From: a virus | Taxonomy: Duplodnaviria > Heunggongvirae > Uroviricota > Caudoviricetes | Length of the DNA: 13,194 bases | Strand: one strand, 5' to 3' | Virus record (IMG/VR): IMGVR_UViG_2690316066_000016 | Coordinates: 1 to 13,194 of that record | Part shown: piece by piece, positions 1-13,194 of the stretch | How the letters are laid out: every line of letters starts with the position of its first letter | Numbering within the stretch: position 1 is the stretch's first letter | Made by a program: the position numbers and the translations under genes | Notes under the pieces: generated by a model | The model's input: the letters and a program-made list of their open reading frames with translations, nothing else | The model's database searches: none | What the model was told of the DNA's origin: nothing

Positions 1-1
1 C

Positions 2-691
2 GCTGAGCTTACCGCTGAGCTTAACATGCGTAAAAAACAATACAACTACTATCGCGACCAGTTATTTAGTTTTGGTGCCCACGATGTTAAACGTCTGAAA
101 TTAGGAGAGCTATGTGTAATTGGAGACGGTTTGCATGGTACTCCAGAATATGACGCCAACGGTGATTATTTCTTTATCAATGGAAACAATTTAGGCTATC
201 AAAAAATATCATTTAACGATAACACAAAAAAGGTTAATGATTCTATGTTTAAAAAACACGGAATTCATTTTGACCCAATAAATACTGTTTTCCTGTCAAT
301 TAATGGCACAATTGGAAATGTTTCCTTTTACAATAATGAGAAGATCGTACTCGGTAAGTCTGTGGCCTATTTTAAAATTAAATCACCTGAACTCCACACT
401 AGATATCTTTTCTATTTCCTGCAGACCAATTACGCAAAACAGTATTTTGAAAATCAAAAAACAGGTTCAACTATTAAAAACTTAGGTTTAAAATCGTTGA
501 GAGCATTTGAAATACCTATCCCATCATACGATGAACAACTTTATATCGTCGCCACGATGGATAAATTTTACAACCTGACAAACTCCATCACCGAAGGTCT
601 CCCGCGTGAAATCGAGTTGCGCCAGAAACAATACGAATACTACCGTGATTTACTGTTCAGTTTCCCGAAACCTGAAACTGTCAGTAATTAA
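2..691 (+). CDS. hsdS: Type I restriction-modification specificity subunit HsdS, 5'-truncated by the window edge (C-terminal target-recognition domain plus conserved tail)
   Basis: Frame opens at the window edge with [22 protein letters not shown] (central conserved region) and ends ...[20 protein letters not shown], the duplicated conserved motif typical of HsdS. The ATG at 26 is internal, not the true start. hsdR follows on the same strand. Confidence 0.8.
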
Positions 692-813
692 TTGACCATT
701 GCTACCGATCGGGCCACCTTAACACCCGGTCAGTATATAGACTATTTTTTTACGCGCCGGAAGTCACTCTTAACGCCCTTCCGGCTCTTGCCAGGCGGCA
801 CAAAGGATGCGCT

Positions 814-3800
814 ATGACTCATCAAACACACACCATTGCTGAATCCAATAACTTTATCGTCCTTGATAAGTACATCAAAGCTGAGCAAACAAGCGACAGC
901 TACCAGAGCGAATCGGACCTGGAACGTGAACTGATTCAGGACCTGCGGAATCAGGGTTATGAATTTATTTCGGTAAAATCACAGTCAGCGATGCAGGCCA
1001 ACGTTCGGGAACAGCTTCAGAGCCTCAATGGTGTGGTGTTTAATGACAGCGAGTGGCGGCGTTTCACGGAGCAGTATCTGGATAACCCGAGCGATGGCAT
1101 TCTGGATAAGACCCGTAAAATCCATATCGACTATATTTGCGACTTTATTTTTGATGACGAGCGTCTTGAGAACATCTATTTGATAGATAAAAAGAATCTC
1201 ATGCGCAATAAGGTGCAGATTATCCAGCAGTTTGAGCAGGCGGGTTCTCATGCTAACCGTTATGACGTCACGATCCTGGTTAATGGCTTACCACTGGTAC
1301 AAATCGAACTGAAAAAGCGCGGCGTGGCGATTCGTGAGGCTTTCAACCAGATACATCGTTACAGTAAAGAGAGTTTTAACAGCGAAAATTCCCTGTTTAA
1401 GTATCTGCAACTGTTTGTCATTTCTAACGGCACCGATACCCGTTACTTTGCCAACACCACAAAGCGCGATAAAAACAGTTTTGACTTCACCATGAACTGG
1501 GCGAAATCAGACAACACGCTGATTAAAGACCTCAAAGATTTTACCGCTACCTTTTTCCAGAAACATACTCTGCTTAATGTTCTGGTGAACTACAGCGTGT
1601 TCGATATTAGCCAGACGCTACTGGTGATGCGACCGTACCAGATTGCCGCTACCGAACGGATCTTATGGAAAATCAACAGTTCCTATAAAGCGAAAAACTG
1701 GTCTAACCCCGAAAGCGGTGGCTTTATCTGGCACACTACCGGTTCCGGTAAAACACTGACCAGCTTTAAAGCCGCGCGCCTGGCAACAGAACTGGACTTT
1801 ATTGATAAAGTCTTCTTTGTGGTCGACAGGAAAGACCTCGATTACCAGACGATGAAGGAATATCAGCGTTTTTCCCCAGACAGCGTCAACGGCTCGGAAA
1901 ATACCGCAGGCCTTAAACGAAATCTGGATAAGGACGATAACAAAATTATCGTCACCACTATTCAGAAACTTAATAACCTGATGAAAGCAGAAAGCGACCT
2001 GCCTGTATACAATCAGCAAGTGGTGTTTATATTTGATGAATGTCACCGCAGCCAGTTTGGAGAAGCGCAGAAAAATCTGAAGAAGAAATTCAAACGCTAT
2101 TATCAGTTTGGTTTTACCGGCACACCTATTTTCCCGGAAAACGCTTTAGGCTCAGAAACGACCGCCAGCGTATTTGGTCGTGAATTGCATTCATATGTGA
2201 TTACCGATGCGATTCGTGATGAAAAAGTGCTCAAATTCAAGGTGGACTATAACGATGTGCGGCCCCAGTTTAAATCTTTAGAGACAGAAACCGACGAGAA
2301 AAAACTGAGTGCGGCTGAAAATCAGCAGGCGTTTCTTCATCCCATGCGTATACAGGAAATTACGCAATATATTCTGAATAACTTCCGCCAGAAGACCCAC
2401 CGTACTTTCCCAGGTTCCAAAGGCTTTAATGCCATGCTGGCAGTGAGTAGCGTGGATGCCGCGAAAGCCTATTACGCGACGTTTAAACGGTTACAAGAGG
2501 AAGCAGCTAATAAATCGGCTACCTATAAACCGCTGCGTGTTGCGACAATCTTCTCCTTTGCCGCCAATGAAGAACAAAATGCCATTGGTGAAATTTCCGA
2601 TGAAACTTTTGATACCAGCGCAATGGACAGCAGTGCTAAAGAGTTTCTTGACGCTGCAATTCGTGAGTATAACAGCTATTTTAAAACTAACTTCAGCACC
2701 GACAGTAACGGTTTTCAGAACTACTATCGTGATTTAGCCCAACGGGTTAAAAATCAGGATATCGATCTGTTAATTGTCGTTGGGATGTTTTTAACCGGCT
2801 TCGACGCTCCAACATTGAACACGCTATTCGTCGATAAAAACTTGCGTTTTCACGGCCTGATGCAGGCATTCTCCCGCACCAACCGCATTTATAACGCCAC
2901 TAAAACCTTCGGTAACATCGTCACTTTCCGGGATCTGGAACGCTCAACCATTGATGCCATAACGCTGTTTGGTGATAAAAATACCAAAAATGTAGTGTTA
3001 GAAAAGAGTTATGCAGAGTATATGGAAGGCTTTACTGATGCTGCCACTGGTGAAGCTAAACGCGGCTTTATGGCAGTAGTTTCAGAACTGGAACAACGGT
3101 TCCCTGACCCTGCCAGTATTGAAAGTGAAAAAGAGAAGAAAGACTTCGTTAAACTGTTTGGTGAATACCTGCGTGCCGAGAACATCCTGCAAAACTATGA
3201 TGAATTTGCCACGCTGAAAGCCCTGCAACAAATCGATCTTAGCGATCCTGTTGCGGTAGAAAAATTCAAAGAAGAACATTATGTGGATGATGAAAAGTTC
3301 GCTGAATTACAAACGATTCGTCTCCCTGCTGAACGCAAGATTCAGGATTATCGTTCTGCCTATAACGATATTCGTGACTGGCAGCGCCGCGAGAAAGAGG
3401 CTGGCAAAAAAGAAAAGTTAACTACTGACTGGGATGACGTGGTTTTTGAAATCGATTTGCTGAAGTCTCAGGAAATAAACCTGGATTATATCCTTGGACT
3501 GATTTTCGAACACAACAGACAAAACAAAGGTAAGGGCGAAATGACCGAAGAGGTCAAGCGCTTAATTCGTTCGAGCCTTGGGAACCGTGCCAAAGAAGGT
3601 CTGGTGGTCGATTTTATTCAACAAACAAACCTGGATGATTTGCCGGATAAAGCCAGCATCATTGACGCGTTTTTTACCTTTGCTCAACGCGAACAGCAAC
3701 GTGAAGCAGAAGCATTGATCAAAGAAGAAAATCTCAATGAAGAGGCGGCGAAACGCTATATTCGCACGTCTTTAAAACGCGAATACGCCACCGAAAATGG

Positions 3801-3930
3801 CACGGAATTAAACGAGACATTGCCAAAACTCAGTCCGTTAAATCCGCAATATAAGACGAAAAAACAGACGGTTTTCCAGAAGATCGTCGCGTTTATTGAG
3901 AAGTTTAAAGGTGTAGGCGGGCAGATATAA
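814..3930 (+). CDS. hsdR: Type I restriction enzyme R subunit HsdR (1038 aa), EcoR124I-like (type IC) by length and context
   Basis: N-terminal PD-(D/E)xK-like nuclease region ([19 protein letters not shown]), helicase motif I HTTGSGKT, motif [12 protein letters not shown] (DExH). AAGGA sits 6 nt upstream of the ATG. The 1038-aa length matches my memory of EcoR124I HsdR (not verified here). Confidence 0.9.
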
Positions 3931-3944
3931 TGTATTAATCCGAA

Positions 3945-3974
3945 CCTGATCTGGCAGATAGCTGTCAGATCAGG
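3945..3974. repeat. Imperfect 13-bp-stem inverted repeat immediately downstream of hsdR (CCTGATCTGGCAG-ATAG-CTGTCAGATCAGG)
   Basis: Read directly from the sequence; one mismatch in the stem and no T-tract after it, so it is not a canonical intrinsic terminator. Possibly an mRNA 3' stabiliser or protein-binding site. Confidence 0.4.
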
Positions 3975-4114
3975 ACTGAGCTAATACAAATTAATATCGA
4001 ACCGAAAATACCAACGCCTGTACCAACATTTTTCGTTTGCGATGGGTTGGAATTGGTTAGCCCTGAGAGAGTTAAAATAGCGAGAAAGATAGGTAACTAA
4101 CGGATTTCAGACAC

Positions 4115-4137
4115 AAAAAAAGCCGCTCTTGAGCGGC
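4115..4137 (-). terminator. Rho-independent terminator on the minus strand, downstream of the tRNA-Leu 3' fragment
   Basis: Plus strand AAAAAAA-GCCGCTC-TT-GAGCGGC; on the minus strand this is a GC hairpin followed by a T7 run, 17 nt after the tRNA-like CCA end. Confidence 0.6.
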
Positions 4138-4154
4138 TCGATTTGCATACGATG

Positions 4155-4185
4155 TGGTGCCGAAGGCCGGACTCGAACCGGCACG
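4155..4185 (-). other. 31-nt 3'-terminal fragment of a tRNA-Leu gene (T-arm, acceptor 3' strand, CCA); putative att core of an integrated element
   Basis: Minus strand reads CGTGCCGGTTCGAGTCCGGCCTTCGGCACCA, matching from memory the 3' end of E. coli tRNA-Leu (leuX-type). Upstream sequence has no matching 5' acceptor strand (no GCCGAAG...), so this is not an intact tRNA. An integrase gene starts 134 nt away. Confidence 0.6.
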
Positions 4186-4318
4186 GGTTATAGCGACTTA
4201 GCTTGCTTCAACAATCATCGTTAACTTGTTGAACTAGTTAGACTAAAGCTCATGACCCCGGCACATTTCACAGACTGTTTAGCCATGAAAAAGCCCCGAC
4301 AACATAACCGGGGTTTGT

Positions 4319-5527
4319 ATGAGTTTCAAGAGAGATCGTTATCTAGTTTTAGATCCCTGCGGGAATTACCTCGTGCGGATAGCTATCCCCAACTACATGC
4401 GCCACCTGTTCCAAGGGAAGCGCTACTTTATGAAAAGCACAGGGACACGCGATGTACGCCAAGCGCGATTGTTTCGGGATGCTATTGCTCTGGAATGGAC
4501 TCGCTTACGGAATCTGCTAAAGCCGCAAGGCGGCTCGTCTGTAGATCAAATCATTGATGAGCTACGCCGTGTCAGTGTGTACGCCAAGGAAGCCCCCACA
4601 TCATTTGGTGCATCAGTTCAGTCTTGCCCTTCCCTACTTAAAATGCGCGATCTGTATCTTCTCCAATACAGCGAGAAGAGAAAGCTAACGACGCTATCCA
4701 AGACCAACAAAGCCGTAGAGATGCTGTTAACCCACCTGAAAAAGAAAGATGTTCAGTTGCGGGATATAAACCGAACCATAGTTACAGGCTGGTTAGATAA
4801 GCTCAAAACTGAGCGAGCGCCCCAAACTATCCAAAACTATATAAGCGCACTGGCACAGATATGGGACCTGGCACGCAATCGCTATCACGATGCGCCACAA
4901 GACAATCCTTGGCGCGGTCATGCGCTCGAAGCAAAAAGCAGCAAGGTCAGCTATGAAGTCTTCGCACCGGGTGAGCTGGCAAAGGTCTATGCTTTGCTTG
5001 ATGACGAGATGAAAGCGGTAACGGCTATTGGTGCATACAGCGGTATGCGGATCAATGAAATATGTACCCTACGTGAAAGCAGTATTAAAACTATCGAGGG
5101 AGTTTTGTGCTTTGAGATCACCGAGGGGAAGACCAAGAGCGCGGCGCGAATCGTCCCAGTACACAGCAAGCTAATCCCCCTCGTGAAATCATTGCTCAAA
5201 ACCACACATAGCGGTTTTCTGTTCTATCACGCATCAATTACAGACCGGGCCGATGGGAAGCGCTCAACGTGGCATACGCAGCAATTCACGCGAGCAAAGC
5301 GTAAAGCTCTTGGCGAGCTTGCCGCAGAGAGAAAAGTGTTTCACTCACTCCGCCATGCTTTTGTGCAACAGCTCGACCGCGCTCAAGTGCAAGAGGATAG
5401 AATCGCGCTACTGGTAGGCCATGAGCGTGGAAGTACAGAAAGTTTCAAAACCTATTCACGAAATAGCGCCTCAACGATTGAACTTAAAAAATACGTCGAA
5501 TTGTTGTCATATAAAGACATCAGGTAG
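4319..5527 (+). CDS. Tyrosine-type site-specific integrase (phage/island integrase)
   Basis: C-terminal catalytic signature: Arg in GMRINEICTLR, HxxR box HSLRHAF, LVGHE, and a Tyr in KTYSRNS about 35 aa after HxxR. Lies next to the tRNA-Leu att-like fragment. The start is uncertain; downstream Met codons are possible. Confidence 0.85.
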   Translation: MSFKRDRYLVLDPCGNYLVRIAIPNYMRHLFQGKRYFMKSTGTRDVRQARLFRDAIALEWTRLRNLLKPQGGSSVDQIIDELRRVSVYAKEAPTSFGASVQSCPSLLKMRDLYLLQYSEKRKLTTLSKTNKAVEMLLTHLKKKDVQLRDINRTIVTGWLDKLKTERAPQTIQNYISALAQIWDLARNRYHDAPQDNPWRGHALEAKSSKVSYEVFAPGELAKVYALLDDEMKAVTAIGAYSGMRINEICTLRESSIKTIEGVLCFEITEGKTKSAARIVPVHSKLIPLVKSLLKTTHSGFLFYHASITDRADGKRSTWHTQQFTRAKRKALGELAAERKVFHSLRHAFVQQLDRAQVQEDRIALLVGHERGSTESFKTYSRNSASTIELKKYVELLSYKDIR

Positions 5528-5578
5528 ATAAAAAACACTTGCGAAATGGATTAATTTTTCACTTAAATTATTTGAGCA

Positions 5579-5605
5579 GGCTGCGCTATTAATTCAAGCG
5601 CAGCC
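5579..5605. terminator. Perfect 9-bp-stem hairpin (GGCTGCGCT-N9-AGCGCAGCC) between the convergent integrase and TIR genes; candidate bidirectional terminator
   Basis: Inverted repeat read from the sequence, located in the 83-bp gap between two convergent stop codons (5527 and 5611). Flanks are not strongly T-rich, so terminator function is inferred from position only. Confidence 0.35.
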
Positions 5606-5610
5606 AATCG

Positions 5611-6225
5611 TTACCATAGTCTAGGTTTAGCTCGGATAGCAGGAACTGTATCTGCATTTCTTTTAACAGCAGGATTCATAATTGCTCGCTTATTAAATGC
5701 TTCATCAATATATGTTTCGCAATCAGCAATAAAATCGGAATACCTTACCACTGCACAATACACTTCCTCATCGGTGTAATGCGGAACTGTTTTTTGAAGA
5801 CGATGATTACCTTGTACCAGATAAGGAAGATATAGTGTATAACCAGTAGAAATCTGCCTTAAACTCACTCCGCAGTTACATCGAAAGTCAGAACATACAG
5901 CATCGGTAAAAACTTCATTCCAGATTTCATCTCTGACGACACCTATCAATCCCGCTGGATTTTCACCCCATAGAGATGCTTGAATTTCTGAGTTCACAAA
6001 TGGACGTTGGGCGGTCTCTCTCCCGATAAGCACAACAGTAACTGTAGTATCAGCGAGATATTCCTCGCGTATCTTACGCATGATGTATTCTTCACTTACA
6101 TCAGTACTAATGTCACCGTCGCTTACGGATTTATCGATAAAAGATTCCCCACCATACGTCTCTATTATACTATCTTTTAAATCCTGTTCATTAGCATGAT
6201 GATAACTTAGAAATGTTTTATGCAT
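5611..6225 (-). CDS. TIR-like domain protein, ThsB-like (DUF1863-type); likely start at the Met codon 6225-6223, with an alternative in-frame ATG at 6237
   Basis: N-terminus KTFLSYHHANEQDL and core TVTVVLIGRETAQRPFVNSEIQASLWGENPAGLIGVV follow the ThsB/TIR-like pattern as I remember it (F-[ILF]-S-[YF]-H...D, then VLIG..T..R.[WF]V..EI with the conserved Glu). GGAG sits 6 nt upstream of the 6225 ATG. Its start overlaps the upstream gene's stop as TAATG. Confidence 0.7.
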   Translation of the reverse strand: MHKTFLSYHHANEQDLKDSIIETYGGESFIDKSVSDGDISTDVSEEYIMRKIREEYLADTTVTVVLIGRETAQRPFVNSEIQASLWGENPAGLIGVVRDEIWNEVFTDAVCSDFRCNCGVSLRQISTGYTLYLPYLVQGNHRLQKTVPHYTDEEVYCAVVRYSDFIADCETYIDEAFNKRAIMNPAVKRNADTVPAIRAKPRLW

Positions 6226-6962
6226 TAGTTGCTCCATTTATCCATGTCAATACTAAACTGGCTGGCAACACTATCTTGAAAGAATTTATTCAGCTCAGTG
6301 AAATCATTAACAAGTTTATTAAAATGATAATAGTAAGTCTGAATTTTACCGATTGGTGTCAGATGATACCTAAGAACAATTGCTTCACCATCAGGTTTCT
6401 CGTCAATTTTAACTTCATCTTTATCTGAGACGTATTTATGCCAGCGCCTATAATTATTTTGGTGCTCAGTCAGAAATGCATTTAGTTTTTTGAGCATAGT
6501 ATTCGCCAACATATATAACTCAAGATCTTTTTTCCTTTTAATATTCAGAACTCGCATCTCAACACGAATAAACTGATAGACCTCGTAGTAAGAATTAAAT
6601 ACCTCATCAAAAGCATCCTGCTGAACGTTTATTTTAAAAAGCGTCCTTTTCGTGTCGAGAAAATTCTGTATAGACTTTATGAAAAGGGCATCAGAGTTAT
6701 CAAAAAGAATATTTAAACCGCCAAAATTAAGCCGTTCAACTTTAAACGAATATTTTCTATTCATCATGCCATCTAATAGAAAGATAGCCACAATGATTAA
6801 TACAACTACAGAAAGTAGAGAACTAAGTACCCCAATATTTTGAAGTAAACGCTTACCGAAGGTTATATCTTCCGACGTTGGTAACTGAACAGTTCCCAAG
6901 AGCGCAATAACAACTATGCAAACAGACCCCCACACAACCCATCTCTTGTACATAAGCATCAT
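6225..6962 (-). CDS. Membrane protein with two N-terminal TM helices and a roughly 180-aa cytoplasmic domain of unknown family; candidate effector/partner of the TIR protein
   Basis: Hydrophobic stretches WVVWGSVCIVVIALLGTV and NIGVLSSLLSVVVLIIVAIFLL, with positive residues before TM1 and after TM2 (N-in/C-in). No family motif recognised in the C-terminal domain. Start ambiguous among three ATGs (6962, 6959, 6953); AGGA is best spaced for the 6953 ATG. Very AT-rich. Confidence 0.6.
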   Translation of the reverse strand: MMLMYKRWVVWGSVCIVVIALLGTVQLPTSEDITFGKRLLQNIGVLSSLLSVVVLIIVAIFLLDGMMNRKYSFKVERLNFGGLNILFDNSDALFIKSIQNFLDTKRTLFKINVQQDAFDEVFNSYYEVYQFIRVEMRVLNIKRKKDLELYMLANTMLKKLNAFLTEHQNNYRRWHKYVSDKDEVKIDEKPDGEAIVLRYHLTPIGKIQTYYYHFNKLVNDFTELNKFFQDSVASQFSIDMDKWSN

Positions 6963-6981
6963 CCTAAAACGCAGTTTAAAA

Positions 6982-7010
6982 ACTATACAACGATGTTTTT
7001 AAGAGTGGAA
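6982..7010 (-). promoter_or_regulatory. Candidate sigma70 promoter for the 2-TM/TIR operon (-35 TTCCAC, 17-nt spacer, -10 TATAGT on the minus strand)
   Basis: Hexamers read by eye on the minus strand upstream of the operon start; the -35 is weak (3 of 6 matches). Not experimentally supported. Confidence 0.3.
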
Positions 7011-7035
7011 GTCCTAGTTATCAGACACATTCTGC

Positions 7036-7066
7036 TTAGCCTACGCATCTCTATTGTGTAGGCTAA
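7036..7066. repeat. Perfect 9-bp inverted repeat (TTAGCCTAC-N13-GTAGGCTAA) between the phage genes and the TIR/TM operon
   Basis: Read from the sequence. Lies 20 nt downstream of the endonuclease VII-like gene stop and just upstream of the candidate promoter: either a terminator hairpin for the phage gene or an operator. Confidence 0.4.
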
Positions 7067-7086
7067 TGCAATGAACTTAAGCCCAG

Positions 7087-7533
7087 CTAAGTAAGTTGCT
7101 CAGTTTTATGGGGATAGATAACTCCTATCCCCTTGTACTGGCGTCGGTAACTTACCAACATTACGCTCATACTGTCGTGGGCCAGTCCACATAAACTTCC
7201 TGCATAATAGCCTCCCTCGGCAGCGTTAGCAGATCGATGCACCACAGCACGCACGCGCCCGGTTCGGTGGCAGTGATCCAGCACGGCAGACCCAAGGCGC
7301 AGCGGCTTACCTGTCACTGCACAGCGTCGGTATTGATAATTCCACAAGAAGACACGGACAGTAGCCACATCAGCGCGACGCAGCTCCAGCCGTCCTGAAC
7401 CATTCAACAGGAAGTGATACACATCATCGAACGCAGCAGAATTTTTAATGCGTTCAGGCAACGGCGTATTGCCGAGATATTCCAGATATCCCCGCATCGC
7501 TTTTCTTAGTAGTTGGTCTGTCCGTGTAACCAT
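7087..7533 (-). CDS. Phage endonuclease VII-like (HNH-superfamily) protein, apparently degenerate in the zinc-ligand positions
   Basis: Motif CAVTGKPL...AVLDHCHRTGRVRAVVHRSANAAEG resembles the endonuclease VII signature (CxxC ... DHxHxTGxxRGxLCxxCN..G), but with CxxT and HxxA where the Cys pairs are expected. GGAG lies 10 nt upstream of the ATG. Confidence 0.5.
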   Translation of the reverse strand: MVTRTDQLLRKAMRGYLEYLGNTPLPERIKNSAAFDDVYHFLLNGSGRLELRRADVATVRVFLWNYQYRRCAVTGKPLRLGSAVLDHCHRTGRVRAVVHRSANAAEGGYYAGSLCGLAHDSMSVMLVSYRRQYKGIGVIYPHKTEQLT

Positions 7534-7805
7534 GATTCAAAGTCTCCACTGTCAGATGCAGCCCGTTTGCAGGCTTCGTATTCTTCGCGCTGGCGTTGGC
7601 ATACCAGAGCATAAAGCTCGACGGCCATCGCATTAACACGTTCGTCACTGATACCATTGCGGCGCATCAGCCCCAGCAGCTTACGAAATTTAGCTTCAAG
7701 CTCAGGCTCTCCGGTATCCATTACCCACTGTTTCAGGTCAGCGAGTGCGCCAGTCATTGGCGGCGGCTCGATGTACCGCCACCTTAATTTAATCGTGGTT
7801 ATCAT
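7506..7805 (-). CDS. Hypothetical phage protein (about 99 aa from the RBS-supported start; the ORF extends to 7853)
   Basis: Open frame with GAGAGGA 8 nt upstream of the ATG at 7805-7803, which overlaps the 3' end of the upstream gene (stop at 7789). No recognisable family. Confidence 0.45.
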   Translation of the reverse strand: MITTIKLRWRYIEPPPMTGALADLKQWVMDTGEPELEAKFRKLLGLMRRNGISDERVNAMAVELYALVCQRQREEYEACKRAASDSGDFESWLHGQTNY

Positions 7806-8214
7806 CTTCTTTATCCTCTCTGTAAGCCGGGTGCATTGCTCGGTATTGCTCAATGGTCAAACCCTCGCTGGCCGCTGCAAACCGTTCCTTTTGCTTACCC
7901 GCCAATCGCAAGGCGCTGTCTCTCCAGCAGAGCAGAAAGAAGATGGTCAGCACCTGTTTACTCAAGCCATCCAGAAGATCGCCAAGTCCTTGCTCAAGCA
8001 GACAGGCACGCCATGCAGCGGCGTGCTCAGTCATCGCACCTACTATCGGGACAGGTGCGCCGAGCATTGTCGCAAGCTGACTCATAACACTATTAGCATC
8101 GCCCGGATGCAGCCGGGGAATAGTCATGCGGCCAGCCTGCGCCAACAGCTCGTCGTACCGCTGGCGGCGTGGGTCATCACCTGCCAGCGACCTAATCGGC
8201 TTTTCATCAGCCAT
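7789..8214 (-). CDS. Hypothetical phage protein (141 aa)
   Basis: Open frame with a strong RBS (GGAGG 8 nt upstream of the ATG at 8214); co-directional and tightly packed with neighbouring phage genes; no family recognised. Confidence 0.5.
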   Translation of the reverse strand: MADEKPIRSLAGDDPRRQRYDELLAQAGRMTIPRLHPGDANSVMSQLATMLGAPVPIVGAMTEHAAAWRACLLEQGLGDLLDGLSKQVLTIFFLLCWRDSALRLAGKQKERFAAASEGLTIEQYRAMHPAYREDKEDDNHD

Positions 8215-8232
8215 TAATGGAACCTCCGAGGA

Positions 8233-8742
8233 TTAGGCAGCCTGCAATAAATCGGCTGGCGTTGAGGGATGGTATCTGGCTTTAGCTTTCAGGTACGCAA
8301 CACGCGCCGCAGCTTCGGTAGTGAATAAGCCAAGGTGATGACGTACACCATCAACACGAATATAAGCCTCCCATTTACTACTACCCTTATTCCAGCTATA
8401 CCCTCTTGCCCTGCGTCGATTCTGGTCGTTTTCCCGCTGCGTAACCAATCGCAGATTGCATAAGCGGTTGTCGTCACGGATACCGTTGATGTGATCGATC
8501 TGCATACCGTGGGGAATAGCACCATGCGCAAGAATCCACGCCACGCGATGGGCTTTTAGCTGGTACTGCTTGCCATCAAGTCGCAGGGCAACTTGACGAT
8601 AGCCATCAGCTCGACGGGTGGAGTCGGCATAGGTGCCAACCTTAACCCGGCGTCGGTTAGCTTTATGTTGCAGGCGGCCTGTCACCGGGTCATATAGGAA
8701 AAGGGAGAGCAGTAGCTCAGGGGCGTAAGCATCATTAACCAT
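8233..8742 (-). CDS. HNH homing endonuclease with a C-terminal AP2-like DNA-binding domain (phage-type)
   Basis: HRVAWILAHGAIPHGMQIDHINGIRDDNRLCNLRLVTQRENDQN is a classic phage HNH (HNH_3-type) motif; C-terminal SKWEAYIRVDGVRHHLGLFTTEAAARVAYLKA resembles an AP2 domain. Confidence 0.8.
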   Translation of the reverse strand: MVNDAYAPELLLSLFLYDPVTGRLQHKANRRRVKVGTYADSTRRADGYRQVALRLDGKQYQLKAHRVAWILAHGAIPHGMQIDHINGIRDDNRLCNLRLVTQRENDQNRRRARGYSWNKGSSKWEAYIRVDGVRHHLGLFTTEAAARVAYLKAKARYHPSTPADLLQAA

Positions 8743-8758
8743 GACTCAGCCCCTCCAG

Positions 8759-9754
8759 TTACACAGCTTGTCGGAAATTGATAACGCAGTCAGGACGACG
8801 CAGCCCAACGTTGAACAGGCGATATGAGTCCATCACCATTGTCATTTCGCGCTCATCATCCCACTGGCGATTAATGACGCTCTGCGCTTCGACCGTCAGC
8901 AGCACAGAGGAAGGTTTAAATAGCGTCGCCCTCGTCAGCGCTTCCTCTGCGGTAACATCATAATCAGCGCCCAGTTCATGCCCGGTGATGGCTTCCTGCG
9001 GGTAACTGTTGAGTTCAATGACTCGCACCCCAGCGACATAGCCAACGCGACGCCATGCGTAATCGTTGCCACTATCCCGGCTGTAACGGACGTTCATCAG
9101 CTTCTTATGCTCCATCAGGATGCTGAACCAAGCCGGGTCGATAAGCAGTACCAGCTCCGCCACCGGAATATCTTTCTCAGTCAGGAATCGATTAACAGCA
9201 GCTTTAATAGCGTGAACCAGCTCATTTGCTGCGTCCTCTTCACTACCCGTGGTCAGGTTGAGCGGGACAACGTTATCCGTAAGCGGGTTAAACGTTGGTT
9301 GCAGTGTCGGCGGTGGTACAAAGTCAGTCGCTTTGATTAGCTGGGTGGTGTGCGCTTCGTCGTAGAATTTAGCGTGAGCAGTACCCATATTGCGGCTCAG
9401 TTCTGCGCGAAAGGTGGGCGCTGTCCAGTCGTCCTGATAGTCAATCGGGACGCGGATATAGCTCAGCGTATCCACAGAGATAACCAACTTGTCCGACTTA
9501 ACGGCGGTAGGCTCCAGCGATTGCCCTGCGGTTCTGCCCTTCACCTCAAGATCACCACCTAGGCGATCAATGCGGTATTGGTTGCTGTTTTTCAGCGGCT
9601 TGTATGTGCTTAGCCCCTCTGCGAGAAAGACGCTCTTTGCCTCAAGGCGGGTCTGAACGTCCCGATCATACGCTTCAATGTGAATGTCGTTGTCAGCATC
9701 CACACCGCCCCAGTGCGGGCGGAATTGGTCAGGGGTATAAACATTGTCAGTCAT
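8759..9754 (-). CDS. Phage major capsid protein, T7 gp10-like (HK97 fold), putative
   Basis: Blocks KSDKLVISVDTLSYIRVPIDY, IKAAVNRFLTEKDIPVAELVLLIDPAWFSILME and RVGYVAGVRVIEL align by eye with T7 gp10 regions as I remember them (KVITIDGLL..., LTKNYVPAADRVFYCDPDSYSAILAA, NVMGFEVVEVPHL). GGAG lies 8 nt upstream of the ATG. Homology is from memory, not a search. Confidence 0.5.
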   Translation of the reverse strand: MTDNVYTPDQFRPHWGGVDADNDIHIEAYDRDVQTRLEAKSVFLAEGLSTYKPLKNSNQYRIDRLGGDLEVKGRTAGQSLEPTAVKSDKLVISVDTLSYIRVPIDYQDDWTAPTFRAELSRNMGTAHAKFYDEAHTTQLIKATDFVPPPTLQPTFNPLTDNVVPLNLTTGSEEDAANELVHAIKAAVNRFLTEKDIPVAELVLLIDPAWFSILMEHKKLMNVRYSRDSGNDYAWRRVGYVAGVRVIELNSYPQEAITGHELGADYDVTAEEALTRATLFKPSSVLLTVEAQSVINRQWDDEREMTMVMDSYRLFNVGLRRPDCVINFRQAV

Positions 9755-9821
9755 AGAAATAGCTCCAGCGCCAGCAGTAGCCAGCGTGATTTATGAAAAG
9801 AGAAAGAGAGAATGGGAGGAA

Positions 9822-10169
9822 TCAGGCAGCAGCTTTTTCAGCAGCCACCTCAAGAATCAGGCCGATAAGCGCGAAAGCGGGCCATTGGGGATTAAGCTCG
9901 TGCAGGTGCGCAACGCCTCCACCAAAAGCATCGCGCATGTCAGCACCAGAGATGCCAGAGCGTTTGGCCGCCCGCCGCAGCAATCGCAGCTCAGAGCTGG
10001 GAACATACGCCGAGGGCATACGCACGCCAAAGCGTGAGGCGAGCCGCCGCCAGTGAGTTTCATCAGCAAAGTCTTGTTTAAGCTGGCTGGCGTTGGCTTT
10101 CCAGTGTTCAATCTTTGCTCTACGGGCAGCCCTAGCCGCTGCCACGTTTTCAGGTGTCAGTAAGGTCAT
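9822..10169 (-). CDS. Hypothetical phage protein (115 aa)
   Basis: Open frame co-oriented with the phage module and preceded by a 160-bp intergenic gap; weak RBS; no family recognised. Confidence 0.4.
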   Translation of the reverse strand: MTLLTPENVAAARAARRAKIEHWKANASQLKQDFADETHWRRLASRFGVRMPSAYVPSSELRLLRRAAKRSGISGADMRDAFGGGVAHLHELNPQWPAFALIGLILEVAAEKAAA

Positions 10170-10329
10170 TGTCAGATCTCAATGCAAAATGGGTTTATGT
10201 GTGGTGTTTGAGAGGTAATTTCGCGTTTTACAGGCGCAGGTATACGAATGCACATCTGGCGATGTACAACGCGATTCAGGCTCTAAAACATAAGGTTAAG
10301 ACGTGGGGAAGACAGGACAGGGCAATTGC

Positions 10330-11409
10330 TTAGCGGCCAGCGCGCTTGCCAGCGGAGCGCTGCGCAACCAGATCGCGGTATTGTTCGTCGTACTGGCGAT
10401 GACCGGGGCCATACCCCGATTGCAGCGCCCACTGCGAAAGCTGGTCATACGCTGCAATAAATTCAGCATGAGACATCCCGACAGGTTGCGCGGTAGGCTG
10501 GCCATGCTGGGCATAACCAGTTTGTGAACCGCCAGCCATACGCTCTTGCAGATACTGAACCGCCCGCTGCATCTGAGCAGGGTCGCCAGACATAACCATC
10601 CGCTCAAGGGTAGATTGCGTCCCGGCATCGAGCGTGCCAGCATATTGCAACATCGCGTCAACTGTACCCTGCCCTAACTGACTTTCTATGGACTGTTGAA
10701 ACTGCCCCATTAACCCTTGCAGCTCGGCGGTATACTCGACAGCCGTCCAGCCATCTTTCATGGTGCGGATCTCTTTTTTACCCGCGTTGACCATTGGCTC
10801 GATGGTGAACGTCATCCCAGGTTTCAGTACGACGTTGGTTTCACGGGAGTCATAGTGCAGCACCTGCGGTTCTTCATGGAAGCCGCGACCAATACCGTGT
10901 CCACAATATTCACGAACGACGGAGAAGCCTTCTGCTTCGACAAACTTCTGAATCGCCGCACCGATTTCGCGCAGGTTAATGCCTGGTTTGACCATGCGCA
11001 GCGCCAGGTACAGGCTTTCTTGCGTGATGCGGCACAGACGTTCGCCCATGATGGTCGGCTTACCGACGATAAACATTTTCGAGGTATCGCCGTGGAAACC
11101 ATCTTTGATTACGGTGACATCAATGTTAACGATATCGCCATCTTTCAGCAGCTTCGCATCGTCCGGGATACCGTGGCACACCACTTCATTAATAGAGATG
11201 CAAACGGATTTCGGATAGCCGTGATAGCCGAGGCAGGCAGAAACCGCGTGTTGTTCATTAACAATGTAATCATTACAGATGCGATCCAGCTCGCCGGTGC
11301 TGACGCCCGGTTTAACATACGGTTCGATCATCTCCAGCACTTCGGCAGCCAGTCGGCCAGCGACGCGCATTTTTTCGATATCTTCTGGGGTCTTGATTGA
11401 GATAGCCAT
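10330..11409 (-). CDS. map: Chimeric ORF: methionine aminopeptidase Map residues 1-222 fused in frame to 137 aa of unrelated (phage-like) sequence; native Map C-terminus (42 aa) missing
   Basis: Translation matches E. coli Map from MAISIKTPEDIEKMRVAG... through ...KKEIRTMKDGWT, then diverges to AVEYTAELQGLMGQFQQ... Nucleotide homology to map stops at about 10743. Position divergent from rpsB matches the known map-rpsB arrangement. Confidence 0.85.
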   Translation of the reverse strand: MAISIKTPEDIEKMRVAGRLAAEVLEMIEPYVKPGVSTGELDRICNDYIVNEQHAVSACLGYHGYPKSVCISINEVVCHGIPDDAKLLKDGDIVNIDVTVIKDGFHGDTSKMFIVGKPTIMGERLCRITQESLYLALRMVKPGINLREIGAAIQKFVEAEGFSVVREYCGHGIGRGFHEEPQVLHYDSRETNVVLKPGMTFTIEPMVNAGKKEIRTMKDGWTAVEYTAELQGLMGQFQQSIESQLGQGTVDAMLQYAGTLDAGTQSTLERMVMSGDPAQMQRAVQYLQERMAGGSQTGYAQHGQPTAQPVGMSHAEFIAAYDQLSQWALQSGYGPGHRQYDEQYRDLVAQRSAGKRAGR

Positions 11410-11554
11410 TAATTCTGTCCATCAGCGTCGGTGATACCGACAATATATATGTAAGTGCCGTCAATGGTATCACACCCGGGCAAATTGAGAATCATTCTGA
11501 ATTTCGCCAAACGTGCCACTGAACGTTTTCTATAATAGAAAATTCAACGTCTGA

Positions 11555-12502
<948 letters not shown>

Positions 12503-12676
12503 TAAGGCTTGATAACTCCCCCAAAATAGTTCGAGTTGCAGAAAGGCGGCAAGCTCGAGAATTCCCGGGAGCTTACATCAGTAAGTGACCGGGATGAGCG
12601 AGCGAAGATAACGCATCTGCGGCGCGAAATATGAAGGGGGAGAGCCCTTATAGACCAGGTAGTACACGTTTGGTTA

Positions 12677-12702
12677 GGGGGCCTGCATATGGCCCCCTTT
12701 TT
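12677..12702 (+). terminator. rpsB-tsf intergenic hairpin with T-tract (GGGGGCC-TGCATAT-GGCCCCC-TTTTT); attenuator or partial terminator
   Basis: Perfect 7-bp GC stem followed by five T residues, between rpsB and tsf as expected for the rpsB-tsf operon. Confidence 0.6.
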
Positions 12703-12759
12703 CACTTTTATATCTGTGCGGTTTAATGCCGGGCAGATCACATCTCCGAGGATTTTAGA

Positions 12760-13137
12760 ATGGCTGAAATTACCGCATCCCTGGTAAAAGAGCTGCGTGA
12801 GCGTACTGGCGCAGGCATGATGGATTGCAAAAAAGCACTGACTGAAGCTAACGGCGACATCGAGCTGGCAATCGAAAACATGCGTAAGTCCGGTGCTATT
12901 AAAGCAGCGAAAAAAGCAGGCAACGTTGCTGCTGACGGCGTGATCAAAACCAAAATCGACAGCAACTACGGCATCATTCTGGAAGTTAACTGCCAGACTG
13001 ACTTCGTTGCAAAAGACGCTGGTTTCCAGGCGTTCGCAGACAAAGTTCTGGACGCAGCTGTTGCTGGCAAAATCACTGACGTTGAAGTTCTGAAAGCACA
13101 GTTCGAAGAAGAACGTGTTGCGCTAAACACAGCCTGA
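12760..13137 (+). pseudogene. tsf: Elongation factor Ts, truncated: only the N-terminal ~122 codons are tsf-like, then three unrelated codons and a stop
   Basis: Translation [43 protein letters not shown]...[11 protein letters not shown] matches E. coli EF-Ts (283 aa), then reads NTA-stop. Nucleotide homology ends at about 13124; the remaining roughly 70 nt are of unknown origin. Confidence 0.85.
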
Positions 13138-13194
13138 ATAAACGGACTGTAGCTGTCGATATCAGCCACCATCACGATGATGTCGCGCGGAGTA

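What the first reader, a model, noticed from the sequence alone, without database searches (positions are those of the whole stretch)
10330..11409. Essential gene map is interrupted after codon 222 and fused in frame to unrelated sequence
Map identity ends abruptly after ...MKDGWT (at about 10743) and the ORF continues for 137 aa of unrelated, GC-rich sequence. The missing 42-aa C-terminus includes a conserved metal-ligand glutamate (about E235 in E. coli Map), so this product should be inactive. Either the genome has another map copy, this is a captured or duplicated core fragment, or it is an assembly chimera.
Basis: partly seen in the sequence, partly recalled or inferred. Interest (0 to 1): 0.7.

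Follow-up and report, generated by a model that had tools for sequence, protein, structure and literature searches.

The report
Chimeric contig, not a broken map gene
The truncated, fused methionine aminopeptidase gene is really in the sequence, but it sits at one of two blunt joins between distant E. coli chromosome pieces in a small draft-assembly contig, so it is most likely a sequencing or assembly chimera rather than biology.

Summary
The ORF at 10330-11409 (-) encodes E. coli Map residues 1-222 followed by 137 unrelated residues, and the metal ligand E235 is lost. The tail is the C-terminal 137 codons, 100% identical, of a 226-aa gene of a leuX-integrated, phage-satellite-like island. 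That gene lies just upstream of the island's capsid gene.

The window is a whole 13,194-bp contig (CDRY01000009.1) of a draft assembly. It is a mosaic of three pieces:
- hsdS/hsdR plus the left part of the island (1-10742).
- map'-rpsB-tsf' (10743-13124). In a complete genome this lies about 304 kb away in inverted orientation.
- 70 nt of recC (13125-13194), from megabases away.

Both joins are blunt, with 1 and 0 nt of microhomology, and each cuts an essential gene (map, tsf). The fusion protein is a singleton among about 15 billion proteins. None of 5,426 complete E. coli genomes has either junction. The predicted reciprocal fusion is absent. A sister assembly shares the tsf|recC contig end but has an intact map.

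The best explanation is a chimeric contig, at about 0.8. A real rearrangement on a redundant copy is not excluded, at about 0.13. Interest is low.

The parts
1..691 (+). 3' part of a type I R-M hsdS gene. The contig starts inside the gene.
   Evidence: It is 100% identical to L010 and 1 mismatch from ESBL 15, with annotation. The first 140 nt lie in a conserved hsdS segment that also matches 561 places on plasmids, so a repeat plausibly caused the contig break.
814..3930 (+). hsdR (1038 aa)
4155..4185 (-). 31-nt copy of the 3' end of tRNA-Leu (leuX), the distal att repeat of the island
   Evidence: The match to island-free ESBL 15 ends 31 nt into its tRNA-Leu. No tRNA gene is present in the window.
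4186..10742 (.). Left 6.5 kb of a leuX-integrated, satellite-like island. It carries int (4319-5527 +), a ThsB-like TIR gene (5611-6237 -), an EndoVII-like gene (7087-7533 -), HNH (8233-8742 -), the major head protein (8759-9754 -) and a 115-aa gene (9822-10169 -).
   Evidence: Window 1-10742 is 100% identical to the intact island copies L010 and L015.
10330..10742 (-). Last 137 codons plus stop of the island's 226-aa gene, a putative scaffold gene just upstream of the capsid gene. This is the 'unrelated tail' of the fusion ORF.
   Evidence: It is identical to residues 90-226 of the native protein encoded at L010:9160-9840. That exact native protein occurs on 32 contigs.
10742..10743 (.). Junction 1, island gene | map. 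It is a blunt join with 1 nt (G) of microhomology.
   Evidence: The parental sequences are map ..GGACGG|TAAAA and island ..GGAACTG|CTGTCGAG. In ESBL 15 the two sides lie 304 kb apart in inverted relative orientation.
10743..11409 (-). map codons 1-222 with the native upstream region
   Evidence: It is 100% identical to many E. coli genomes. The 222-residue prefix is identical to native Map.
11777..12502 (+). rpsB, intact (241 aa)
12760..13124 (+). tsf codons 1-122. It carries the lineage variant G68S and is cut off at junction 2.
13124..13125 (.). Junction 2, tsf | recC. It is a blunt join with 0 nt of microhomology.
   Evidence: The parental sequences are tsf ..GCGCT|GGTAGC and recC ..GCTACC|AAACAC. 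No complete genome has it.
13125..13194 (-). 70 nt from inside recC, running to the contig end
   Evidence: It is 100% identical to recC in E. coli genomes. In strain PV15-279, tsf is at 195,822 and this recC piece is at 3,783,057.

Best explanation
The window is a chimeric contig, and the map fusion is not a gene of a living cell. Three E. coli chromosome segments that are not neighbours were joined end to end into one 13.2-kb contig: hsd plus the left part of the leuX island; map'-rpsB-tsf'; and a 70-nt piece of recC. The most likely cause (inferred) is chimeric DNA molecules or reads, formed by blunt ligation of sheared fragments during library preparation. The assembler then followed them where the true path was weak or had been clipped. 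The fusion is in frame only because both genes happened to be cut in the same codon phase, which has a 1 in 3 chance. The long open 'tail' is simply the native reading frame of the island gene. What is shown: the mosaic structure, the identity of all three pieces, the blunt junctions, and the uniqueness of the junction. What is inferred: that the junctions arose in vitro or in silico rather than in the cell.
For: (1) The window equals the whole contig CDRY01000009.1 of draft assembly GCA_001373235.1.
(2) Positions 1-10742 are 100% identical to contigs where the island gene is intact. Positions 10743-13194 are 100% identical to CCBW01000148.1, where map is intact.
(3) A second abrupt junction lies 2,382 bp from the first, tsf|recC at 13124/13125. 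Two essential genes (map, tsf) are therefore truncated within 2.4 kb.
(4) The junctions have 1 nt and 0 nt of microhomology. An overlap-based misjoin or homologous recombination would not give this, but blunt fragment ligation would.
(5) The joined loci are 304 kb apart and inverted, and megabases apart for tsf and recC.
(6) Neither junction is present in 5,426 complete E. coli genomes. The fusion protein is a singleton on 1 contig among about 15 billion proteins.
(7) The predicted reciprocal fusion is absent, and no N-terminal-only relative turned up.
(8) The contig stops exactly 70 nt into recC, as expected when a chimeric path merges into the true recC path of an assembly graph (inference).
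Against: No reads or other contigs of the assembly could be inspected, so the chimera is inferred and not demonstrated. The tsf|recC junction, with the very same contig end, is also present in a second assembly, GCA_000939035.1. If that assembly comes from an independent library of a related isolate, junction 2 would have to be real. A real junction 2 would raise the odds that junction 1 is real too. A unitig-type assembler should break at a branch rather than run through a weakly supported chimeric link, so the join must have had notable support or the true paths must have been lost.
Confidence: 0.8

Rival explanations
1. The junction is a real rearrangement on a redundant copy or in a subpopulation. 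The strain would carry an extra copy of the dgt-...-map-rpsB-tsf' region, such as a large duplication or a tandem-inversion-duplication-type structure whose end is joined to recC. That dispensable copy would then have been joined to the leuX island by homology-independent end joining, while intact map and tsf persist elsewhere.
For: The tsf|recC junction is shared by two separately accessioned assemblies, with an intact map in one. That pattern would fit stepwise, inherited rearrangements. The contig runs uninterrupted through both junctions. The junctions interrupt essential genes, which is tolerable only on a spare copy.
Against: If identical intact copies existed, a short-read assembler would see branches at both junctions and would not give 13-26 kb contigs through them. 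Blunt joins with 0-1 nt of microhomology are uncommon for E. coli, which lacks classical NHEJ (own knowledge). Neither junction is seen in any of 5,426 complete genomes. No reciprocal or second-copy product was found.
Confidence: 0.13
2. The junction comes from a real, clonal, reciprocal inversion of about 310 kb between map codon 222/223 and the island gene. This would leave the cell with only the fusion protein as its MetAP.
For: The two sides are in inverted orientation about 304 kb apart, as an inversion junction would be. The fusion is in frame and keeps the map promoter.
Against: The fusion lacks E235 and the end of the Peptidase_M24 domain (PMC2807865). map is essential in E. coli (Chang et al. 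1989, cited in PMC2807865). The predicted reciprocal fusion is not in the collection. An inversion does not explain the second junction in essential tsf.
Confidence: 0.02
3. The fusion is a functional or conserved Map variant, or host DNA captured by the island as cargo.
For: The reading frame stays open and the map promoter is native.
Against: All 63 relatives of the tail protein are stand-alone proteins of about 222-231 aa or fragments of them. Only this one sequence combines the tail with PF00557. All intact island copies carry the full gene. To the right of map, the contig never returns to island sequence.
Confidence: 0.02

Closest known systems
Chimeric or misassembled contigs in draft bacterial assemblies (library insert chimeras carried into contigs)
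   Same: The contig joins non-adjacent single-copy loci at abrupt points inside genes, with 0-1 nt of overlap. It holds more than one such junction and is unique to one small contig. One end carries a short foreign tail of 70 nt.
   Different: Read-level proof is missing. One of the two junctions recurs in a second accessioned assembly, which is unusual unless the two share a strain library or reads.
E. coli type I methionyl aminopeptidase (Map, Peptidase_M24)
   Same: Residues 1-222 are identical to native Map. The native upstream region is kept, and ligands D97, D108, H171 and E204 are present.
   Different: The last 42 residues, including ligand E235, are replaced by an unrelated tail from an island protein. 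The product is not expected to be an active MetAP.
Microhomology-independent or alternative end-joining rearrangements, and tandem inversion duplications, in enterobacteria
   Same: Such events can give an inverted-orientation junction between distant loci with little or no homology.
   Different: There is no evidence for a duplicated copy and none for selection. Two essential genes are hit, and the whole structure sits in an orphan 13-kb contig.

Membership tests
Type I methionyl aminopeptidase (functional Map) | Complete Peptidase_M24 'pita-bread' domain | tested here: not met
   PF00557 matches residues 12-212, covering model positions 1-196 of 208. Native Map is 264 aa and only 222 residues are retained.
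Type I methionyl aminopeptidase (functional Map) | Five metal ligands: D97, D108, H171, E204 and E235 | tested here: not met
   D97, D108, H171 and E204 are present, but E235 lies in the deleted part. The ligand list comes from PMC2807865.
Chimeric contig (artefact) | The two sides of the junction map to non-adjacent places in related complete genomes | tested here: met
   In ESBL 15, the map break is at 3,985,810 and leuX att is at 4,289,841, on opposite strands. In PV15-279, tsf is at 195,822 and the recC piece is at 3,783,057.
Chimeric contig (artefact) | The junction is not reproduced in independent genomes or assemblies | tested here: met
   For junction 1, none of 5,426 complete genomes has it, and the fusion protein is a singleton on 1 contig. 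Junction 2 recurs in one other assembly, so this feature is met for the junction in question only.
Chimeric contig (artefact) | The native arrangement of both parents exists in the same lineage | tested here: met
   An intact map lies on CCBW01000148.1, which is identical over 10743-13194. An intact island gene lies on L010 and L015, which are identical over 1-10742.
Chimeric contig (artefact) | Few or no independent reads span the junction, and intact loci are present in the same read set | not testable with these tools
   Neither the reads nor the other contigs of GCA_001373235.1 are accessible.
Reciprocal chromosomal inversion | A reciprocal junction is present (island gene 5' part joined to map 3' part) | tested here: inconclusive
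   The predicted 131-aa reciprocal product is not in the 15-billion-protein collection. No N-terminal-only hit of that kind appeared. However, the exact sequence had to be assumed from L010, and gene calling at contig edges is imperfect.
Reciprocal chromosomal inversion | The rearranged genome is viable | tested here: not met
   The inversion would leave only a Map lacking E235, and the same contig also truncates tsf at codon 122. The essentiality of map is taken from the literature (PMC2807865, citing Chang 1989). The essentiality of tsf is from own knowledge.

The most novel reading that the evidence does not exclude
The mosaic is real. In this E. coli lineage, a spare copy of the map-rpsB-tsf region would have been joined by homology-independent end joining, first to recC and later to a capsid-encoding satellite island at leuX. 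That would create a map-promoter-driven Map(1-222)::scaffold(90-226) fusion upstream of the satellite's capsid genes.
Probability: 0.1. Interest if true: 0.4.

Novelty: not a real feature. Interest (0 to 1): 0.07.

Why it matters
If the fusion were real, a cell living with a truncated essential MetAP, or carrying a stepwise end-joined mosaic of core genes and a phage satellite, would be noteworthy for E. coli genome plasticity. As it stands, the value is practical. Contig CDRY01000009.1 should be treated as chimeric. The 359-aa 'Map' and the 125-aa 'Tsf' derived from it are database artefacts that should not be used for annotation or for gene-fusion inference.

Tried and rejected
(a) I first read BLAST overlaps as a 13-nt microhomology at 10743-10755. 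Alignment with the 100%-identical native island showed only 1 shared nt plus a gapped, imperfect resemblance, GATGG..AC.G, so I rejected this.

(b) I looked for restriction-site signatures at the four fragment ends and saw none (reading).

(c) I searched papers for the accessions CDRY01, CCBW01, CCQX01 and the GCA numbers, and nothing relevant came up. The neighbouring WGS prefixes belong to unrelated organisms, so the project and sequencing technology remain unknown.

(d) I tried to look up the native island protein's contigs to find a second copy in the same assembly.

(e) The RpsB look-up, meant to find sister contigs, was uninformative because the protein is in 67,692 blocks.

(f) I searched for internal repeats in hsdS to explain the left contig end and found none. 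The end does lie in a segment shared with plasmid hsdS genes.

(g) PHROGs and Pfam give no function for the tail donor. The label 'scaffold' rests on gene order and on one source's name for a homologue.

(h) A Tsf G68S exact look-up showed a lineage variant present on 193 contigs, so it is not diagnostic for a second copy in this assembly.

Full report
**The observation**

The ORF at 10330..11409 on the minus strand exists and encodes 359 aa.
- Its first 222 residues are identical to E. coli Map (264 aa), and identity ends after ...MKDGWT.
- At the DNA level, 5,425 of 5,426 complete E. coli genomes match the window from 10743 rightwards. None continues to the left of it.
- The remaining 137 codons are more GC-rich, at 57.6% against 51.9%.
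- The lost 42 residues contain E235. E235 is one of the five conserved metal ligands D97/D108/H171/E204/E235 of E. coli MetAP (PMC2807865).
- Pfam Peptidase_M24 is matched only to model position 196 of 208.

**What the tail is**

The window is collinear with a leuX-integrated island up to 10742. The layout is:
- hsdS', then hsdR.
- A 31-nt copy of the tRNA-Leu 3' end at 4155-4185.
- An integrase, a ThsB-like TIR gene, an EndoVII-like gene, an HNH gene, a major head protein (PHROG 267) and a 115-aa gene.

Intact copies of the island were recovered through exact look-ups of the 115-aa and capsid proteins. Two of them, L010 (CCQX01000002.1) and L015, are 100% identical to window 1-10742.

In those copies the next gene encodes a 226-aa protein, MSEQ...PLMDGT|AVEYTAEL...KRAGR. 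Its last 137 residues are exactly the 'unrelated tail'. That native protein occurs on 32 contigs. It has 63 relatives, all stand-alone proteins of about 222-231 aa or fragments of them. Only the window's protein combines it with a Peptidase_M24 domain. No Pfam or PHROG family covers it. Its position directly upstream of the capsid gene, and one source's name for a homologue ('Scaffolding protein'), suggest a scaffold role. That is an inference.

**The junction itself**

BLAST overlaps first suggested 13 nt of shared sequence at 10743-10755. Alignment with the identical native island shows otherwise:
- map reads ..GATGGCTGGACGG|TAAAA.
- The island reads ..GATGGAACTG|CTGTCGAG.

Only a single G can be assigned to either parent, so the join is essentially blunt. 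Both genes are cut in the same codon phase, which is why the frame stays open. That has a 1 in 3 chance.

In the complete genome of strain ESBL 15, the map breakpoint is at 3,985,810 and the leuX attachment point is at 4,289,841. ESBL 15 matches both flanks with a single mismatch each (100% over the map portion itself). The two window halves match opposite strands of that genome. The junction therefore joins loci 304 kb apart in inverted orientation.

**A second junction**

Comparing the right half with ESBL 15 showed that identity stops at 13124, inside tsf. The last 70 nt of the contig (13125-13194) are 100% identical to an internal piece of recC. The join has no shared base at all: tsf ..GCGCT|GGTAGC and recC ..GCTACC|AAACAC.

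In strain PV15-279 the two pieces lie at 195,822 and 3,783,057. None of 5,426 complete genomes has this junction. Tsf is truncated at codon 122.

The contig is thus a three-piece mosaic:
- Piece A: 10,742 bp of hsd plus island.
- Piece B: 2,382 bp of map'-rpsB-tsf'.
- Piece C: 70 bp of recC.

Two essential genes are cut within 2.4 kb.

**Provenance and uniqueness**

The window is the entire contig CDRY01000009.1 (13,194 bp) of draft assembly GCA_001373235.1. The fusion protein is a singleton cluster seen on one contig among about 15 billion proteins. The predicted reciprocal product is not in that collection, and no such fragment appeared among the homologues. That product would be the island gene's N-terminal 89 aa joined to the Map C-terminal 42 aa.

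The truncated Tsf occurs on exactly two contigs. One is this contig. The other is CCBW01000148.1 of GCA_000939035.1, which ends at the same base 70 nt into recC. That contig carries the normal dgt-degP-cdaR-dapD-glnD-map-rpsB order with an intact 264-aa Map. It is 100% identical to window 10743-13194.

So within this lineage both parental arrangements exist intact, and only this contig has the map|island join. No paper or project information could be found.

**Interpretation**

The most economical reading is that the contig is chimeric. Blunt joins of randomly broken fragments from distant loci are what ligation chimeras formed during library preparation look like. A contig that ends a fixed short distance after entering foreign sequence is what happens when a chimeric path merges into the true path of an assembly graph. 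Both points are inferences. The left contig end lies in a conserved hsdS segment that is also common on plasmids, which fits a repeat-caused break in a short-read assembly.

A clonal reciprocal inversion is excluded biologically, for three reasons. It would leave only a MetAP without E235, although map is essential (Chang et al. 1989, via PMC2807865). It does not explain the truncated tsf. Its reciprocal junction was not found.

What cannot be excluded is a real junction on a spare, duplicated copy or in a subpopulation. The recurrence of the tsf|recC end in a second accessioned assembly is the one observation that points that way. It counts as independent evidence only if the two assemblies do not share a library or reads, which I could not determine. 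Against it, identical spare and intact copies would create graph branches, and those should have broken the contigs at the junctions.

**Verdict**

- A real rearrangement on a redundant copy stands at about 0.13.
- Other readings are at 0.02 or less each.

This is not a new biological feature. Its practical consequence is that the 359-aa 'Map' and the 125-aa 'Tsf' from this contig should be flagged as artefacts. Read mapping or PCR across 10742/10743 would settle the matter.

Noticed in passing
window 13124/13125 and 13125-13194: A second abrupt junction. tsf is cut after codon 122 and followed by 70 nt of recC up to the contig end, with no microhomology. The same junction and the same contig end occur in CCBW01000148.1 (GCA_000939035.1).
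   Followed up: yes
window 4186-10742; intact copies L001:13150-28160, L006-L017: A leuX-integrated island of about 15 kb with its own major head protein (PHROG 267). It also carries a putative scaffold gene, HNH and EndoVII-like nucleases, a ThsB-like TIR gene and an integrase. In intact copies it additionally has a DEAD/DEAH helicase, a resolvase and AlpA. No recognisable terminase or portal is present. It looks like a capsid-encoding phage satellite that does not fit the usual cf-PICI gene set.
   Followed up: partly
window 9339-9496: The island's capsid gene shares 77-83% nucleotide identity over about 150 nt with the major capsid genes of about 42-kb E. coli siphophages such as Lidtsur, glasur and J8-65. 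This hints at the helper phage type.
   Followed up: no
window 1-3929: The chromosomal type I R-M genes hsdS and hsdR are about 95% identical to genes carried by the roughly 90-kb phages phi456 and vB_EcoM-673R5. The same R-M system therefore circulates on phage genomes.
   Followed up: no
window 1-140: The contig's left end lies in a conserved hsdS segment that matches 561 places on E. coli plasmids. This is a likely repeat-caused contig break.
   Followed up: partly
window 12961: Tsf carries G68S relative to the 11 other E. coli copies examined (ESBL 15 and L021-L030). The intact G68S protein is seen on 193 contigs, including a 5,207,197-bp genome, so it is a lineage marker.
   Followed up: partly
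L006:9172-9840 vs L010:9160-9840: The island's scaffold-like gene exists as 222-aa and 226-aa alleles that differ by a 12-nt indel, in otherwise near-identical islands.
   Followed up: no
window 10743-11600: Three of the 5,482 map-region matches in complete E. coli assemblies lie on plasmids, so fragments or copies of the map region do occasionally sit on plasmids.
   Followed up: no
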